Origin: Bacilli bacterium
GTDB taxonomy: Bacteria; Bacillota_I; Bacilli_A; RF39; UBA660
Direction: 5' to 3'
Assembly (NCBI GenBank): GCA_017409785.1
Contig: JAFQSD010000004.1
Location: 48,663-112,662 of the forward strand
DNA: 64,000 bases
This document shows positions 59,281 through 64,000 of this stretch, piece by piece (position 1 is the first letter of the stretch; each line of letters starts with the position of its first letter). A program made the position numbers and the translations under genes. The notes beneath the pieces were generated by a model. It was given only the letters and a program-made list of their open reading frames with translations. It searched no databases and had not been told where the DNA came from.

Positions 59281-60075
59281 ATGAGCAAATTATATATTCA
59301 AAATTTAGCACCAATAATAACAGAGCGTTGCAATTTAAAATGTATGCATTGTATGCGTGGAACTGCAACATCAAAGGATATGAAAGATGAAGTTATAGAA
59401 CAACTAGGCCAAATAGATTCAATAGGAAATATAACTATCTGTGGAGGAGAACCTACTTTAGCTTTACCTACATTAGAAAAGTTACTAACATTTATTGTGG
59501 ACAATCATATTGGATTAGACACTCTAACAATGACAATAAATGGTACAAACTATAGTGAAGAATTATTAAGATTATTAGATTATATTGATGAATATATTCC
59601 TAAAAGAAAATATGATGTAAACGCTTTCTTTGGTATATCAAAAGATCCATTTCATGTAAGAGAATTAAAAGATAGAGGTCAAATTGATACATATGTAGAT
59701 AATGTAACTAAATATGTTGAAAGTCCACATTTTCTAGAATATCGTGAAATAGATAAAAAACTATTTAGAGAGGGTAGAGCAGAATCACTTGATCCAAGAA
59801 TTACTATACCTCTAAATCCATGGCCAATAATTTATACATATTTAAAAGAACATGATGTAACAGAAGTGGGACCATTAGTAGCAATTAACCCAGATGGAAT
59901 AGTTACTGAATGTGATGCTTCTTTAGAACATCAAAGAACATTATATAATTATGGAAATATTTTAGAAGAAGATTTAGAGTTAATTATAAAAAGAGTAGGA
60001 GAAGAAGTATCTCCAAGAACATGGTATAGAAAAACTGGAAAAATAATAAAAAAACAAATTAATTACAACAAGTAA
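59281..60075 (+). CDS. small radical SAM enzyme (PflA/NrdG-like minimal activase architecture)
   Basis: CNLKCMHC (CxxxCxxC) at residues 17-24 and a GGEP motif (ICGGEPTL); 264 aa. Confidence 0.6.
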   Translation: MSKLYIQNLAPIITERCNLKCMHCMRGTATSKDMKDEVIEQLGQIDSIGNITICGGEPTLALPTLEKLLTFIVDNHIGLDTLTMTINGTNYSEELLRLLDYIDEYIPKRKYDVNAFFGISKDPFHVRELKDRGQIDTYVDNVTKYVESPHFLEYREIDKKLFREGRAESLDPRITIPLNPWPIIYTYLKEHDVTEVGPLVAINPDGIVTECDASLEHQRTLYNYGNILEEDLELIIKRVGEEVSPRTWYRKTGKIIKKQINYNK

Positions 60076-60087
60076 AGATATCAAAAT

Positions 60088-60116
60088 TTGCAAAAACAAT
60101 AAACTTATGTTATAAT
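60088..60116 (+). promoter_or_regulatory. promoter TTGCAA-17-TGtTATAAT
   Basis: Seen directly. Confidence 0.5.
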
Positions 60117-60119
60117 TAA

Positions 60120-60340
60120 GCCAGTTAATTAAAAGACGACTCATTCAAAGTAATTATTTTATAATGTTTTATAGAGAGTTTGTGGTTATGTGGAAACAAA
60201 CAAAAATAAAATAATGAATTACAAGTGATGATTTTAATCGGAGAAGTCCGTTATCAAAATAAGGTAATAAACTATTATTACAAATAAAGGTGGTACCACG
60301 AGCATTTCGTCCTTTTGGATGAAGTGCTCTTTTTATTTTC
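60120..60340 (+). promoter_or_regulatory. T-box riboswitch leader (tyrosine specifier candidate UAC at 60220-60222)
   Basis: AGAGAG stem-I start, T-box core aaaGGTGGTACCacgag with a 7-nt UGGUACC bulge flanked by AAAGG/CCUUU and ACGA/UCGU helices, and an overlapping terminator gagcatttcgtcc/ggatgaagtgctc plus a T-run. It lies upstream of tyrS. Confidence 0.7.
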
Positions 60341-60356
60341 AAAGGAGGTGATTTGT

Positions 60357-60455
60357 ATGGATAGTGACTATTACTATTATTACTTTGATGATTGTAATTT
60401 AATTAACTATACAAATTATTTAGGAGGAAATAAAAATGAAAAAGAAATTATTTGA
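60357..60455 (+). CDS. candidate 32-codon Tyr-rich upstream ORF (MDSDYYYYYFDDCNLINYTNYLGGNKNEKEII)
   Basis: Strong RBS aaaggaggtg 7 nt upstream, directly after the T-box terminator; overlaps the tyrS RBS and start in another frame. Confidence 0.3.
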   Translation: MDSDYYYYYFDDCNLINYTNYLGGNKNEKEII

Positions 60456-61674
60456 TATTCTCAAAGAAAGAGGATACATAAAAGATTTAACACACGAACA
60501 AGAAATTATTGATTTATTGAATGGAGAACCATTTACATTTTACTTAGGAATTGATCCGACAGCAGATAGTCTACATATTGGTCATTTCTTTGCCTTAACA
60601 ATGTTTAGATGGTTACAAGATTTTGGACACAAAGGTATTGTCTTAGTTGGAGGAGCAACAGCCCTAATAGGAGATCCGACTGGAAAAAGTGATATGAGAA
60701 AAATGTTATCAAAAGAAGAAGTTGCTCACAACAAAGCTGAAGTAAAAGAATTAGTAAAACGTTTTGTAAAAACAGATGGAGATAATCCTGCAATTATTGT
60801 AGATAATGCAGATTGGATTTCTGATAAGAATTACATAGACTTTATGAGAGACATTGGAGTACACTTCAATGTCAACAATATGCTCCAAGCAGATTGTTAC
60901 AAAAAACGTCTAGAAAATGGTGGATTAACATTCCTAGAAATGGGCTACATGTTAATGCAAGCATTTGACTTTGTACATCTAAATAAAGAATTTGGTTGTA
61001 AACTACAAATAGGTGGTTCAGACCAATGGGGTAATATTATTGCTGGAGTAGACTTATCTAGAAAAATAGGATTTAGTGAAGGTAAAAAAATAGACCCATT
61101 ATTTGGTTTAGTATGTCCATTACTAATAAAAGCAGATGGAGAAAAAATGGGTAAAACAGCAACAGGTACACTATGGGTATCTAGAGATAAAACATCTACA
61201 TTTGAATTTTTCCAAGCATGGATGAATTCATTTGATGAAGATGTTGAAAGAAGTTTATCTTTCTTCACAAGAATGGAAATAGAAGATATAAAAGAACTTT
61301 GCAAAAAAGATATTAGAGAAGCAAAAAAACTTCTGGCTTTCGAAGTAACAAAATTAGTTCATGGTGAAGATGAAGCTATTAAAGCCAGAAAAACATCAGA
61401 AGAACTATTTAGTAATAAAGGTATTTCTGATAACATGCCAAGTATAACTTTATCTAAAGATAAATTAGATATTAATATAGTCGACTTATTAGTAGAAACA
61501 AATCTAGTAACATCTAAATCTGAAGCAAGAAGACTAATAGAACAAAATGGTATAAGTATAAATCAAATAAAAGTAAATAGTGTTAATGATTTAATAACAA
61601 AAGAAAGTTTAACTGAAAACTTTATAATTATTCAAAAAGGTAAAAAAGTATTTTTAAAAGTTATATTTGAATAA
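60436..61674 (+). CDS. tyrS: tyrosyl-tRNA synthetase
   Basis: HIGH (LHIGHF), KMSKS-like KMGKT, and an N-terminus collinear with TyrS. Confidence 0.9.
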   Translation: MKKKLFDILKERGYIKDLTHEQEIIDLLNGEPFTFYLGIDPTADSLHIGHFFALTMFRWLQDFGHKGIVLVGGATALIGDPTGKSDMRKMLSKEEVAHNKAEVKELVKRFVKTDGDNPAIIVDNADWISDKNYIDFMRDIGVHFNVNNMLQADCYKKRLENGGLTFLEMGYMLMQAFDFVHLNKEFGCKLQIGGSDQWGNIIAGVDLSRKIGFSEGKKIDPLFGLVCPLLIKADGEKMGKTATGTLWVSRDKTSTFEFFQAWMNSFDEDVERSLSFFTRMEIEDIKELCKKDIREAKKLLAFEVTKLVHGEDEAIKARKTSEELFSNKGISDNMPSITLSKDKLDINIVDLLVETNLVTSKSEARRLIEQNGISINQIKVNSVNDLITKESLTENFIIIQKGKKVFLKVIFE

Positions 61675-63193: not shown

Positions 63194-63239
63194 TAGAACC
63201 ATCACAAAACCAGTGCGAGGAAGAAGTAGAAAAGTAAAA

Positions 63240-63484
63240 GCATTTTAGAGAACTCTGTTAGGTGAAAAAGAGGATGTAATGACTTTTTGAACATGGCCCT
63301 CAAGGGTGAATGGCTGAAACTTTAGTAAGTCATTACAGGTGTGCCTGTTACAGCACAAGCCTATAACTATGCAAAAGACATAAGTAGGTTAGCGAGTTTA
63401 GTACAGTAATGCACTATTAAATAAGAGTGGTAGCGTGATATATATTCACCTCTTAGGATTTTTTCCTAAGAGGTTTTTTGTTTA
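63240..63484 (+). promoter_or_regulatory. T-box riboswitch leader (methionine; AUG specifier candidates at 63274-63276 or 63279-63281)
   Basis: AGAGA stem-I start; antiterminator AAGAG-UGGUAGC-GUGA..UCAC-CUCUU with the 7-nt bulge; terminator cctcttagg/cctaagagg plus a T-run; lies upstream of metG. Confidence 0.6.
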
Positions 63485-63503: not shown

Positions 63504-64000
63504 ATGAAGAATATATTAATAGGAATATCTTGGCCATTTGCAAACGGAGATTTGCATATAGGCCATGCAGCAAGTAGTTTGCCAGGAGATGTTATCGCAA
63601 GATATCATCGATTAAAAGGAAATAATGTAATATTAGTATCAGGGAGTGATTGCCATGGCACTCCAATTGATGTTAAAGCATTACAAGAAAACAAAAGTGC
63701 CAAAGAAATAGTCGATCTTTGTCATGAAAATTTTACAAGAGACTGGAAAAATCTAGGAGTAAGTTTTGATCTCTATAACAGAACAGATGATGAATACCAT
63801 AAAAACTTTGTAAAAAAACAATTTAAAAAATATTATGAATATGGTTATCTTTATGAACAACAAGAAGAACAACTATTCTGTAGTCATTGTAATTTATTTT
63901 TAGCTGATCGTTACATAGTAGGAGTATGTCCGAAATGTGGTTCTAATATTAAAGGAGATGAATGTGAGAAATGTGGAAGTCTTTTAGAAATAAAAGATGT
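63504..64000 (+). CDS. metG: methionyl-tRNA synthetase (3'-truncated by the window end)
   Basis: HIGH motif (DLHIGHA) and zinc knuckle CPKCGS...CEKCGS; the ORF runs off the window. Confidence 0.8.
   Translation, partial: MKNILIGISWPFANGDLHIGHAASSLPGDVIARYHRLKGNNVILVSGSDCHGTPIDVKALQENKSAKEIVDLCHENFTRDWKNLGVSFDLYNRTDDEYHKNFVKKQFKKYYEYGYLYEQQEEQLFCSHCNLFLADRYIVGVCPKCGSNIKGDECEKCGSLLEIKD

What the first reader, a model, noticed from the sequence alone, without database searches (positions are those of the whole stretch)
60357..60455. Tyr-codon-rich upstream ORF with strong RBS wedged between a T-box terminator and tyrS
Seen: directly after the T-box terminator T-run (60330-60340) comes aaaGGAGGtgatttgtATG, opening a 32-codon ORF, MDSDYYYYYFDDCNLINYTNYLGGNKNEKEII. 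It has five consecutive Tyr codons and seven in total. It ends at TGA 60453-60455, overlaps the tyrS Shine-Dalgarno (taggagga) and the tyrS ATG (60436), and is out of frame with tyrS. Established: amino-acid biosynthetic operons use leader peptides enriched in the cognate codon (trpL, pheL, hisL), and T-boxes sense uncharged tRNA. Inference: ribosome speed through the Tyr codons, which depends on charged tRNA-Tyr, could modulate access to the overlapping tyrS RBS. That would add a second, translational sensing layer of the same tRNA on top of the T-box. It could also be a low-complexity coincidence in an AT-rich genome.
Basis: partly seen in the sequence, partly recalled or inferred. Interest (0 to 1): 0.65.

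Follow-up and report, generated by a model that had tools for sequence, protein, structure and literature searches.

The report
Tyrosine-codon leader ORF before tyrS
Between a tRNA-sensing T-box riboswitch and the tyrosyl-tRNA synthetase gene lies a short reading frame with five tyrosine codons in a row; it is conserved in dozens of related uncultured gut bacteria and probably acts as a second, ribosome-based sensor of tyrosine supply, though that function has not been tested.

Summary
The sequence holds ATG 60357 to TGA 60455, 32 codons, MDSDYYYYYFDDCNLINYTNYLGGNKNEKEII. A 12-nt Shine-Dalgarno (AAAGGAGGTGAT) sits directly after the terminator of a Tyr (UAC) T-box, and the ORF overlaps the tyrS SD and ATG out of frame.

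It is not an AT-rich coincidence.
- The SD-ATG-Tyr-run module occurs in every member of a monophyletic clade of uncultured gut Bacilli: 31 distinct leaders and 61 unannotated protein clusters.
- The region is as conserved as the T-box itself (0.89 identity, against 0.61 at tyrS third codon positions).
- The frame stays open, and it always runs to or past the tyrS SD.
- Tyr-run codons change mostly synonymously, while the rest of the peptide drifts.
- The same leader also precedes a different TyrRS type. A sister clade carries it in frame with tyrS.

Best reading (about 0.5): a tandem tRNA-Tyr sensor like B. subtilis rtpLP, in which stalling at the Tyr codons keeps the tyrS initiation region open and free of ribosome traffic. 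Translation and regulation are untested.

I file it as a new variant of a known kind. Unrelated Clostridia tyrS leaders carry an independent YYYYY leader peptide with terminators.

The parts
60088..60116 (+). Promoter-like site of the tyrS leader (TTGCAA, 17 nt, TG-TATAAT)
   Evidence: 10 of 12 consensus matches with an extended -10 TG. This is a consensus match only.
60127..60317 (+). T-box riboswitch (the Stem II segment of the Rfam model is deleted)
   Evidence: RF00230, 93.1 bits, E 4.6e-19, full model 1-219. Model positions ~105-132 are absent in the alignment.
60220..60222 (+). Specifier codon UAC (Tyr), in the context GAAU-UAC-A
   Evidence: Position read from the cmscan alignment and the sequence. 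TAC followed by a purine is kept at this place in most of the tyrS T-box leaders shown. The assignment rests on the position rule for T-box specifier loops, which is established knowledge.
60300..60340 (+). T-box terminator hairpin (60300-60329) and U-tail (60330-60340). The U-tail is also the 5' strand of helix A.
   Evidence: 13-bp stem, 6 GC pairs, tail TTTTTATTTT. Searches give the pairing of the tail with 60426-60436.
60341..60352 (+). uORF Shine-Dalgarno AAAGGAGGUGAU (core GGAGG 60344-48), 8 nt before the AUG
   Evidence: AGGAGGTG is invariant in all 31 distinct leaders and in the four in-frame relatives. The 12-nt complementarity is to the canonical Firmicute 16S 3' end; this organism's own 16S was not checked.
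60357..60455 (+). Leader ORF, 32 codons plus TGA, MDSDYYYYYFDDCNLINYTNYLGGNKNEKEII
   Evidence: Homologous ORFs appear in 61 protein clusters and in 31 distinct DNA leaders. The frame is kept open.
60369..60383 (+). Run of five Tyr codons (TAT TAC TAT TAT TAC), the proposed sensing codons
   Evidence: The run is 2-6 codons in relatives, mostly 4-5. Changes inside the run are mostly synonymous.
60346..60421 (+). Conserved long hairpin. The 5' arm holds the 3' part of the uORF SD, the spacer, the AUG and codons 2-3. The apical part holds the Tyr run paired with codons 10-14. The 3' arm ends 1 nt before the tyrS SD.
   Evidence: -22.9 kcal/mol, z -5.3, 0 of 200 shuffles fold as well; present in 31 of 31 leaders, mean -21.1 kcal/mol; 94-98% of cells paired, with compensatory changes at two pairs.
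60423..60427 (+). tyrS Shine-Dalgarno GGAGG
   Evidence: It is variable in relatives (GGAGG, AGAGG, GGAGA, GGGAGG).
60426..60436 (+). 3' strand of helix A: the last two G of the tyrS SD, the spacer, and the A of the tyrS AUG, paired with the terminator U-tail 60330-60340
   Evidence: an 11-bp duplex in 24 of 27 haplotypes. Matched pairs are more stable than mismatched pairs (-7.5 against -6.6 kcal/mol; permutation p < 1/5000, not corrected for phylogeny).
60436..61674 (+). tyrS, tyrosine--tRNA ligase, 412 aa
   Evidence: TIGR00234, 414 bits against a cut-off of 113.8.

Best explanation
This is a translated leader ORF that acts as a second, ribosome-based sensor of charged tRNA-Tyr, placed in series behind the Tyr T-box.

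Shown: the anatomy and its conservation.

Inferred: the working.
1. Uncharged tRNA-Tyr lets RNA polymerase read through the T-box terminator.
2. In the read-through RNA, the 107 nt from the U-tail to the tyrS AUG can fold into one long stem. The U-tail pairs with the tyrS SD-AUG spacer (helix A). The uORF start region pairs with the segment just 5' of the tyrS SD (helix B).
3. Ribosomes load on the very strong uORF SD.
4. If Tyr-tRNA is plentiful, they run through the Tyr codons, cross the tyrS SD and AUG, and terminate a few codons into tyrS. In doing so they occlude the tyrS start, and the stem refolds behind them. TyrS synthesis is damped.
5. If charged tRNA-Tyr is scarce, the lead ribosome stalls at codons 5-9. 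Its footprint covers the 5' arm of helix B, and the following ribosomes queue behind it. The stem stays open, and the tyrS SD lies 40 nt or more downstream, free of traffic. TyrS synthesis rises, and possibly mRNA stability too.

This is the logic of the B. subtilis rtpLP/anti-TRAP leader and of ermC-type translational attenuation, applied to an aminoacyl-tRNA synthetase gene.
For: Placement and rarity:
- The run of five cognate codons sits exactly between a Tyr-specific T-box and tyrS.
- Such a run is otherwise absent from the window.

Conservation:
- The SD-AUG-MD(S)D-(Tyr)n module is present in every member of a monophyletic TyrS clade, and in 4 of 6 members of the sister clade.
- It appears in 31 distinct DNA leaders and 61 protein clusters from many gut metagenomes.
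- Mean pairwise identity of the region is 0.89. That equals the T-box and is far above tyrS third codon positions at 0.61.

Signs that the frame is read:
- AGGAGGTG and its distance to the AUG are invariant, while the bases it could pair with vary.
- No stop appears among 42 alternative codon types, against 4.2 expected (P = 0.009). The other two frames are closed.
- Substitutions inside the Tyr run are 3 synonymous to 1 non-synonymous, against 5 to 33 in the rest (Fisher p = 0.018). That is the signature of a leader peptide in which only the regulatory codons matter.

Geometry:
- The uORF always reaches or passes the tyrS SD. Its stop lies at -9 to +25 in the large majority of leaders.
- A ribosome stalled at the run would stop 36 nt or more short of the tyrS SD.

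The module is kept when its surroundings change:
- The same T-box plus uORF precedes a TyrRS only 36% identical to the window's.
- Flanking genes differ between genomes.
- The sister clade keeps the SD, MDSD and the Tyr run without the hairpin.

Independent parallels:
- Twelve Clostridia-type tyrS loci have no T-box but carry a non-homologous leader ORF ending in YYYYYI, followed by terminator hairpins.
Against: - There is no direct evidence that the uORF is translated, or that it affects tyrS.
- The uORF AUG is paired in the predicted hairpin in all 31 leaders. That should hinder initiation unless loading happens co-transcriptionally.
- Nucleotide-level conservation shows no codon-position bias overall: 22, 21 and 20 changes at positions 1, 2 and 3. 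Much of the constraint is therefore on RNA, not on the peptide.
- The Tyr run is itself part of the hairpin, so its conservation is not cleanly separable from structure.
- Run length varies from 2 to 6, and indels in a trinucleotide repeat are multiples of three without any selection.
- The stop position is not fixed (+43 and +89 in two species). This weakens a strict model of a terminating ribosome blocking the start.
- Folding with ribosome-sized unpaired constraints left predicted tyrS SD and AUG accessibility almost unchanged, because helix A still forms in silico.
- In the free fold the tyrS SD is only partly paired (P unpaired 0.61).
- In the sister clade the ORF is fused in frame to tyrS, which does not fit an occlusion model.
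- The covariation statistics are modest, and the sequences are phylogenetically related.
Confidence: 0.5

Rival explanations
1. The uORF is translated but does not sense tyrosine. Its job would be to melt the long stem and deliver ribosomes to tyrS, by translational coupling or as a standby site. tyrS translation would then depend on uORF translation. The Tyr run would be a by-product of a TAY trinucleotide repeat, or would serve only as one strand of the hairpin. If anything, Tyr starvation would lower TyrS synthesis.
For: - The uORF always crosses the tyrS SD, and in most leaders it stops 5-25 nt past the tyrS AUG.
- The tyrS spacer and AUG are drawn into helix A, and the hairpin abuts the SD. 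A passing ribosome would open them.
- The Tyr run pairs with codons 10-14 in the hairpin.
- Run length is variable.
- Leader ORFs close to structural genes have been proposed to raise translation by reinitiation (PMC4833913).
Against: - tyrS keeps its own good SD at normal spacing, so it does not need coupling.
- The stop position ranges from -9 to +89, and the frame relation is 0, +1 or +2. That is poor geometry for a conserved termination-reinitiation device.
- The pairing partner of the Tyr run varies freely (FDDCN, FNELI, FENSF, FGELV and others), while the Tyr codons stay and change synonymously.
- A cognate-codon run in front of the cognate synthetase arose independently in Clostridia.
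- A brake on TyrS during Tyr starvation would work against the T-box directly upstream.
Confidence: 0.2
2. The element is an untranslated RNA. In this reading it is a structured spacer: a hairpin plus an SD-like 30S-binding site at the 5' end of the processed read-through transcript. It would stabilise tyrS mRNA against 5'-to-3' decay, or insulate T-box folding from the A-rich tyrS RBS. The open frame would be incidental.
For: - The hairpin is present in 31 of 31 leaders, with z about -5 and some compensatory changes.
- The AUG is buried in the stem.
- Substitutions show no codon-position bias, and most are non-synonymous.
- Very long SD matches without productive translation are known as mRNA stabilisers in Bacillus (STAB-SD; from memory, not checked here).
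Against: - The AUG sits at invariant, optimal spacing from an invariant SD. The SD's potential pairing partner varies.
- The frame is kept free of stops (P = 0.009), while the other two frames are closed.
- Tyr-run changes are synonymous.
- The sister clade keeps the SD, AUG, MDSD and the Tyr run without the hairpin, with an exact 18-codon in-frame length in 4 of 4 sequences.
- This reading gives no reason for a tyrosine-codon run specifically before tyrS, twice independently.
Confidence: 0.12
3. The ORF encodes a small Tyr-rich peptide with a function of its own, for example a RiPP precursor for the neighbouring radical SAM enzyme, or a trans-acting leader peptide.
For: - A radical SAM gene lies directly upstream (59281-60075).
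- The peptide is rich in Tyr and contains a Cys.
- Gene callers predict it in many assemblies.
Against: - The radical SAM neighbour is found only in the conspecific genome. Other genomes have secA or other genes upstream.
- The peptide's middle and C-terminus are not conserved. The C-terminus is dictated by the tyrS SD and coding sequence, in three different frames.
- Changes are mostly non-synonymous.
- The ORF lies inside the tyrS leader, behind a tRNA-Tyr riboswitch.
Confidence: 0.03
4. The ORF is a neutral relic or coincidence: a duplicated tyrS ribosome-binding site plus a TAY repeat in an AT-rich genome, with no present function.
For: - In relatives without the uORF, the tyrS SD and ATG sit exactly where the uORF SD and ATG sit here.
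- The roughly 79-nt extra segment is flanked by AGGAGG on both sides.
- The genome is 27% G+C.
Against: - The region is as conserved as the T-box and far more conserved than synonymous sites of tyrS.
- It is retained in all members of the clade, and retained when the downstream TyrRS was replaced.
- It is single-copy, so it is not a mobile repeat.
Confidence: 0.02

Closest known systems
B. subtilis at operon (rtpA/yczA-ycbK): a Trp T-box followed by the leader peptide coding region rtpLP (Chen & Yanofsky, Science 2003; Mol Cell 2004, cited in PMC10327191 and PMC4027176)
   Same: - A T-box that senses uncharged tRNA.
- The T-box is followed by a short leader ORF containing consecutive codons for the same amino acid.
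- The ORF is placed so that ribosomes translating it interfere with the start site of the downstream gene. The same tRNA is thus sensed twice, once in transcription and once in translation.
   Different: - The amino acid is Tyr, not Trp.
- The regulated gene is the cognate aminoacyl-tRNA synthetase, not an anti-regulator protein.
- The peptide is not homologous and is about three times longer.
- The ORF overlaps the downstream start codon, and its stop position varies.
- A conserved 76-nt hairpin and a U-tail:RBS helix are part of the element.
- Details of rtpLP geometry are from memory, not from a paper I could read.
- Function here is untested.
ermC / cat-type translational attenuation (leader-peptide stalling opens a hairpin and frees the downstream RBS)
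   Same: - A short leader ORF whose 5' part forms one arm of a hairpin next to the regulated gene's RBS.
- A ribosome stalled early in the leader would hold that arm.
- There is no terminator after the leader, so control would be translational.
   Different: - Stalling would be caused by lack of charged tRNA at cognate codons, not by an antibiotic plus a specific nascent peptide.
- The regulated SD is not inside the main hairpin. Only the SD-AUG spacer is paired, and it pairs with the terminator U-tail.
Classical ribosome-mediated transcription attenuators with cognate-codon leader peptides (trpL, hisL, pheL; E. coli pheM-pheST for an aminoacyl-tRNA synthetase; from memory)
   Same: - A leader peptide enriched in codons for the amino acid that the regulated gene handles.
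- pheM-pheST shows that a synthetase gene can be controlled this way.
   Different: - No terminator or antiterminator pair follows the uORF here. One search finds only the T-box terminator.
- The ORF lies downstream of a riboswitch terminator rather than upstream of its own.
Clostridia-type tyrS leaders seen here (L045, L046, L051, L052, L057, L063, L065, L066, L068, L070, L071, L073)
   Same: A short ORF with five consecutive Tyr codons in the leader of tyrS.
   Different: - The peptide is not homologous (M-x-x-L-F-A-x-x-S-YYYYY-I-stop).
- There is no T-box.
- The ORF is followed by overlapping hairpins and one or two intrinsic terminators, so it looks like a classical transcription attenuator.
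- I found no description of it in the literature searches.
Translational T-boxes of Actinobacteria (ileS; SD sequestration; from memory)
   Same: tRNA sensing by a T-box ends in control of translation initiation of a synthetase gene.
   Different: There the T-box itself sequesters the SD and no leader ORF is involved. Here the T-box has a normal intrinsic terminator, and the translational layer is a separate ORF and hairpin.

Membership tests
T-box riboswitch (Rfam RF00230) | Covariance-model match at or above the gathering score | tested here: met
   93.1 bits against a threshold of 93, full-length model. It passes only just.
T-box riboswitch (Rfam RF00230) | Specifier codon matching the regulated gene, and a terminator overlapping the T-box sequence | tested here: met
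   UAC at 60220-22 before tyrS. Terminator at 60300-60329 plus a U run.
Cognate-codon leader peptide sensors (ribosome-mediated attenuation in the broad sense) | Short ORF with a credible ribosome-binding site in the leader of the regulated gene | tested here: met
   The sequence AAAGGAGGTGAT, an 8-nt spacer, then ATG. AGGAGGTG and its distance to the ATG are invariant in 31 leaders.
Cognate-codon leader peptide sensors (ribosome-mediated attenuation in the broad sense) | Tandem or enriched codons for the amino acid handled by the regulated gene, conserved among relatives | tested here: met
   Five consecutive Tyr codons before tyrS. Relatives have 2-6, mostly 4-5. Changes in the run are mainly synonymous.
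Cognate-codon leader peptide sensors (ribosome-mediated attenuation in the broad sense) | Alternative RNA structures whose choice depends on where the ribosome sits | tested here: inconclusive
   A conserved hairpin overlaps the ORF, and a U-tail:RBS helix exists. No clear mutually exclusive alternative was found. Constraint folding did not change RBS accessibility.
Cognate-codon leader peptide sensors (ribosome-mediated attenuation in the broad sense) | The leader ORF is translated, and expression of the downstream gene responds to it and to the amino acid | not testable with these tools
   This needs toeprinting, ribosome profiling or reporter fusions.
Classical transcription attenuator (trpL/pheM type) | Intrinsic terminator downstream of the leader ORF, with an overlapping antiterminator | tested here: not met
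   the only terminator-like site in 60050-60500 is the T-box terminator upstream of the ORF. The hairpin at 60346-60421 has no U run after it.
rtpLP-type tandem sensor (T-box plus leader peptide) | Leader ORF located between the T-box terminator and the structural gene, with cognate codons matching the T-box specifier | tested here: met
   The specifier is UAC, and two of the five codons in the run are UAC.
rtpLP-type tandem sensor (T-box plus leader peptide) | Leader ORF ends at or next to the structural gene's SD or start, so that completing ribosomes mask it | tested here: inconclusive
   The stop lies at -9 to +25 relative to the tyrS ATG in most leaders, but at +43 and +89 in two. In the sister clade the ORF is fused in frame.
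rtpLP-type tandem sensor (T-box plus leader peptide) | Sequence homology to rtpLP or the at operon | tested here: not met
   The peptide search returned only tyrS-leader ORFs. The downstream gene is tyrS, not rtpA. The relation is by analogy only.

The most novel reading that the evidence does not exclude
Leader-peptide sensing of charged tRNA-Tyr may be a recurrent and so far undescribed way of controlling tyrS in Firmicutes, and it may have been invented at least twice. In RF39-like gut Bacilli it would be a translational attenuator stacked behind a T-box, giving two sensors of one tRNA in series on a synthetase gene. Its working parts would be a conserved long-range stem that joins the riboswitch terminator's U-tail to the tyrS ribosome-binding site. 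In Clostridia it would be a stand-alone YYYYY transcription attenuator that replaces the T-box.
Probability: 0.45. Interest if true: 0.72.

Novelty: new variant of a known kind. Interest (0 to 1): 0.62.

Why it matters
T-boxes are usually treated as complete regulators of synthetase genes. As far as I know, the only studied case where a T-box is backed up by a cognate-codon leader peptide is the B. subtilis anti-TRAP operon.

A second, strongly conserved example would show that the two-layer design is a general solution rather than a curiosity. This one sits on a synthetase gene, and its structure physically links the riboswitch terminator to the downstream ribosome-binding site.

It would also give a compact test system of about 110 nt. 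That system could be used to ask why a cell senses both uncharged tRNA (T-box) and the supply of charged tRNA at the ribosome (leader peptide).

On the practical side, dozens of gut-metagenome ORFs now labelled 'hypothetical' would be explained. The independent YYYYY leader in Clostridia suggests there is an unrecognised class of tyrS attenuators to be added to RNA and leader-peptide catalogues.

Tried and rejected
- **Mobile repeat or MITE.** The hairpin has inverted arms and is flanked by AGGAGG on both sides. Both arms are single-copy in the 64-kb window, and the element sits at an orthologous site in all relatives. Rejected.
- **RiPP precursor for the upstream radical SAM gene.** The neighbour is not syntenic. 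Rejected.
- **tRNA-Tyr anticodon-arm mimic for TyrRS autoregulation.** The motif UUGUAAU at 60392-98 is paired rather than in a loop, and GUA is lost in L017 and L018. Rejected.
- **Programmed +1 frameshift from the uORF into tyrS at hungry Tyr codons.** The +1 frame hits TAA at 60400, and the frame relation differs among species. Rejected.
- **Genetic code 4 (TGA = Trp).** Some gene callers used it and extended the ORF. Table 11 gives normal coding density and an intact tyrS. Rejected.
- **A generic feature of T-boxes in this genome.** The second T-box (63204-63456, metS) has no uORF. Not generic.
- **Constraint folding to mimic stalled, initiating or terminating ribosomes.** It showed no clear change in tyrS RBS accessibility. 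Uninformative.
- **Peptide-level selection.** There is no codon-position bias overall. Only the Tyr run and the avoidance of stops show coding-type constraint.
- **Searches that gave little.** A search for more in-frame-clade members found one cluster.
- **Literature.** Searches for a tyrS leader peptide or a T-box plus uORF found nothing relevant. The review PMC2650889 was not held.
Full report
**1. What is in the sequence**

The window has 27% G+C. Its closest relatives are uncultured gut 'Bacilli' or 'Tenericutes' MAGs, including Clostridium sp. CAG:1000 and Firmicutes bacterium CAG:582. From memory these belong to the RF39 group; I did not verify that.

The anatomy runs as follows.
- A promoter-like site lies at 60088-60116.
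- A T-box follows at 60127-60317: RF00230, 93.1 bits, just above the gathering score.
- UAC sits at the specifier position, 60220-22.
- The terminator is a 13-bp stem at 60300-60329, followed by TTTTTATTTT.
- Next comes AAAGGAGGTGAT (60341-52), a 12-nt match to the canonical 16S 3' end. An 8-nt spacer leads to ATG 60357.
- The ORF has 32 codons, MDSDYYYYYFDDCNLINYTNYLGGNKNEKEII, and ends at TGA 60453-55.
- The ORF crosses the tyrS SD (GGAGG 60423-27) and the tyrS ATG (60436) in another frame.
- tyrS matches TIGR00234 at 414 bits.

**2. It is not chance**

- Five TAY codons in a row occur once in the window on both strands, against 0.07 expected.
- In 18,854 residues of long ORFs (Tyr 5.0%) there is one YYY and nothing longer.
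- The other two frames are closed by stops.

**3. Conservation**

A scan of one genome per species with TyrS returned 80 loci. In all loci with TyrS 73-98% identical to the window's, the stretch AGGAGGTGRTTTRTATGGAT...(TAY)n... is present between the T-box terminator and tyrS.

A peptide search found 61 protein clusters. All of them are this ORF, and all are unnamed or 'hypothetical'. One cluster alone is listed in 86 blocks of the assembly collection, and in the four places shown it always lies next to tyrS.

A metagenome pattern scan gave further leaders. Every hit with a T-box upstream was of this type.

That makes 31 distinct DNA leaders in all. Mean pairwise identity is 0.89 for the uORF region, the same as the T-box (0.89) and far above tyrS third codon positions (0.61). 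On a rough TyrS tree the uORF-bearing genomes form one clade, and all members have the uORF.

**4. What is conserved, and how**

AGGAGGTG, its distance to the ATG, and ATGGAT are invariant. The Tyr run has 2-6 codons, mostly 4-5. The middle of the peptide (FDDCN) varies freely. The C-terminus is simply whatever the tyrS SD and coding region specify, in frame 0, +1 or +2.

Overall there is no codon-position bias (22, 21 and 20 changes) and there are few synonymous changes (8 of 42). The peptide as such is therefore not under selection.

Two coding-type signals remain.
- Inside the Tyr run, changes are 3 synonymous to 1 non-synonymous, against 5 to 33 elsewhere (Fisher p = 0.018).
- None of 42 alternative codon types is a stop, although 4.2 were expected under random single-base change (P = 0.009).

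This is the pattern expected of a regulatory leader ORF. The ORF must stay open and the regulatory codons must stay, while everything else is free or is constrained as RNA.

**5.

The region 60346-60421 folds into a long hairpin: -22.9 kcal/mol, z -5.3, with no shuffle folding as well.
- Its 5' arm holds the last bases of the uORF SD, the spacer, the AUG and codons 2-3.
- The Tyr run pairs with codons 10-14 in the apical part.
- The 3' arm ends one base before the tyrS SD.

The hairpin is predicted in 31 of 31 leaders (mean -21.1 kcal/mol, mean z -5.3), and the AUG is always paired. Its helices are 94-98% paired across the alignment. Compensatory changes occur at two pairs, for example G-C to A-U in L018, L126 and L148. 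Because the sequences are so similar, covariation statistics are only modest: 6 pairs with double changes against 3.8 +/- 1.1 in shuffles, with 25 of 500 shuffles as high.

Below the hairpin, the terminator U-tail (60330-40) pairs with GGAAAUAAAAA (60426-36). That segment is the end of the tyrS SD, the spacer, and the A of the AUG. The position of the single A in the U-tail and of the single U in the spacer shift together among species. An 11-bp duplex exists in 24 of 27 haplotypes. Matched tails and spacers pair better than mismatched ones: -7.5 against -6.6 kcal/mol, permutation p < 1/5000, not corrected for phylogeny.

The two SD sequences face each other in the internal loop between the two helices.

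**6. The module survives changes of context**

- In L122, L125, L130, L132, L163 and L176 the same T-box and uORF precede a different TyrRS. It has 395 aa where the whole gene is present, is 36% identical to the window's enzyme, and also matches TIGR00234. The uORF then stops 1-11 nt past the new ATG.
- Flanking genes differ. The upstream gene is a radical SAM gene here and secA elsewhere.
- In the sister clade (L025, L030, L193, L200) the same SD and MD(S/D)D-Y(Y/D)Y start is kept with synonymous differences (GAT/GAC, TAT/TAC). No hairpin follows. The ORF runs in frame for exactly 18 codons into tyrS, which keeps its own internal SD. Two members of that clade, L027 and L029, lack it.
- In relatives without the uORF, the tyrS SD and ATG sit directly after the terminator, at the place the uORF SD and ATG occupy here. 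The uORF start therefore probably descends from the ancestral tyrS start. The hairpin's 3' half looks like a later addition. Both points are inference.

**7. Mechanism**

The anatomy and its conservation are shown. The working is inferred.

The best fit is a second tRNA-Tyr sensor in series with the T-box.
- After read-through, ribosomes load on the very strong uORF SD.
- With ample Tyr-tRNA they cross the tyrS SD and AUG and terminate just inside tyrS. This occludes the start, and the long stem refolds behind them.
- With scarce Tyr-tRNA the lead ribosome stalls with codons 5-9 in the A site. Its footprint, roughly 60351-60382 for codon 5, covers the 5' arm of helix B, and following ribosomes queue behind it.
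- The tyrS SD, 40 nt or more downstream, is then free of both traffic and structure.

This mirrors the anti-TRAP leader peptide of B. subtilis, where uncharged tRNA-Trp induces both transcription (through a T-box) and translation (through leader-peptide stalling) (PMC4027176; PMC10327191, citing Chen & Yanofsky 2003 and 2004). It also mirrors ermC-type translational attenuation.

The weak points are these.
- The uORF AUG is buried in the hairpin.
- The stop position varies from -9 to +89.
- The tyrS SD is only partly paired in the free fold.
- Folding with ribosome-sized constraints hardly changed predicted RBS accessibility, because helix A still forms in silico.
- The in-frame clade does not fit an occlusion model.

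I put the sensor model at about 0.5. I put a non-sensing coupling or unfolding role at 0.2 and an untranslated structural or stabiliser element at 0.12.

**8. An independent parallel found in passing**

Twelve other tyrS loci from Clostridia-type MAGs have no T-box and no other Rfam match upstream. About 200-305 nt before tyrS they carry a promoter, an SD, and a 15-17-codon ORF ending in S-YYYYY-I-stop (one locus ends in K instead of I). The Tyr codons are TAT TAT TAC TAC TAC. Overlapping hairpins and one or two intrinsic terminators follow. This looks like a classical transcription attenuator for tyrS.

It is not homologous to the element studied here. It shows that tyrosine-codon leader ORFs before tyrS arose more than once. 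That supports the sensing interpretation by analogy.

**9. Comparison and novelty**

The element works like rtpLP and ermC-type attenuators. It is not a member of the rtpLP family by homology, and it is not a classical transcription attenuator because no terminator follows the ORF.

My literature searches found no description of a Tyr leader peptide at tyrS, or of a T-box plus uORF on a synthetase gene. The held library is incomplete, so this is absence of evidence only.

I classify it as a new variant of a known kind. Interest is moderate to high: it is a clean, strongly conserved and testable case, but it is not a new principle.

Noticed in passing
L045, L046, L051, L052, L057, L063, L065, L066, L068, L070, L071, L073 (about 200-305 nt upstream of the tyrS match; for example L045 2650-3000): Clostridia-type tyrS leaders have no T-box. 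Each carries a promoter and a short ORF M-x-x-L-F-A-x-x-S-YYYYY-I-stop (five Tyr codons). Overlapping hairpins and one or two intrinsic terminators follow. After them comes a second small conserved ORF (..KTYAxxG..) containing the hairpin ACGCCCnnnnGGGCG, and then tyrS. This looks like an undescribed leader-peptide transcription attenuator for tyrS, and no Rfam family matches it.
   Followed up: partly
L122, L125, L130, L132, L163, L176 (downstream of the uORF): The same T-box plus uORF leader precedes a different TyrRS. It has 395 aa where complete (L125, L130, L132; 396 in L176), starts MNNDNNIDIIVRK..., and is 36% identical to the window's TyrS, but it has a very similar C-terminal S4 region. 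This suggests the catalytic part of tyrS was replaced by recombination while the leader was kept.
   Followed up: partly
L025, L030, L193, L200: Sister-clade leaders keep the SD and MD(S/D)DY(Y/D)Y. The ORF runs in frame for exactly 18 codons into tyrS, past a conserved internal SD. That would give two possible TyrRS isoforms. In L025 and L200 the Tyr codons (UAUUAUUA) are complementary to the internal SD-AUG spacer (AUAAUAAUA).
   Followed up: partly
window 63204-63456 (+), with metS ATG at 63504: A second T-box scores 92.3 bits, just under Rfam's gathering score of 93, so the default search misses it. It precedes methionine--tRNA ligase and has no uORF between the terminator and the start codon.
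   Followed up: yes
window 60127-60317: The tyrS T-box lacks the Stem II segment of the Rfam model (model positions ~105-132 are deleted in the alignment). It scores only 0.1 bit above threshold. T-boxes of this lineage are probably under-detected by standard annotation.
   Followed up: no
window 59281-60075 (+): A 264-aa radical SAM protein (CxxxCxxC at residues 17-24) has only weak, sub-threshold matches to maturase families such as HxsC and MoaA. It is present only in the conspecific genome L001 at this position, and its function is unknown.
   Followed up: partly
L108 2266 onward: This contig has the T-box, the SD and MDSDYYYYYFDD. The ORF then continues into an unrelated reading frame (VSTFDKKDILFYKRAQ...) instead of the hairpin's 3' half and tyrS. 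It is either a chimeric assembly or a real rearrangement.
   Followed up: no
Protein clusters P0016, P0017, P0019, P0021 and others: Several database entries read the uORF's TGA as Trp (...EIIWYFKRKRLC). Some pipelines therefore called these MAGs with genetic code 4. The window itself is consistent with code 11.
   Followed up: partly
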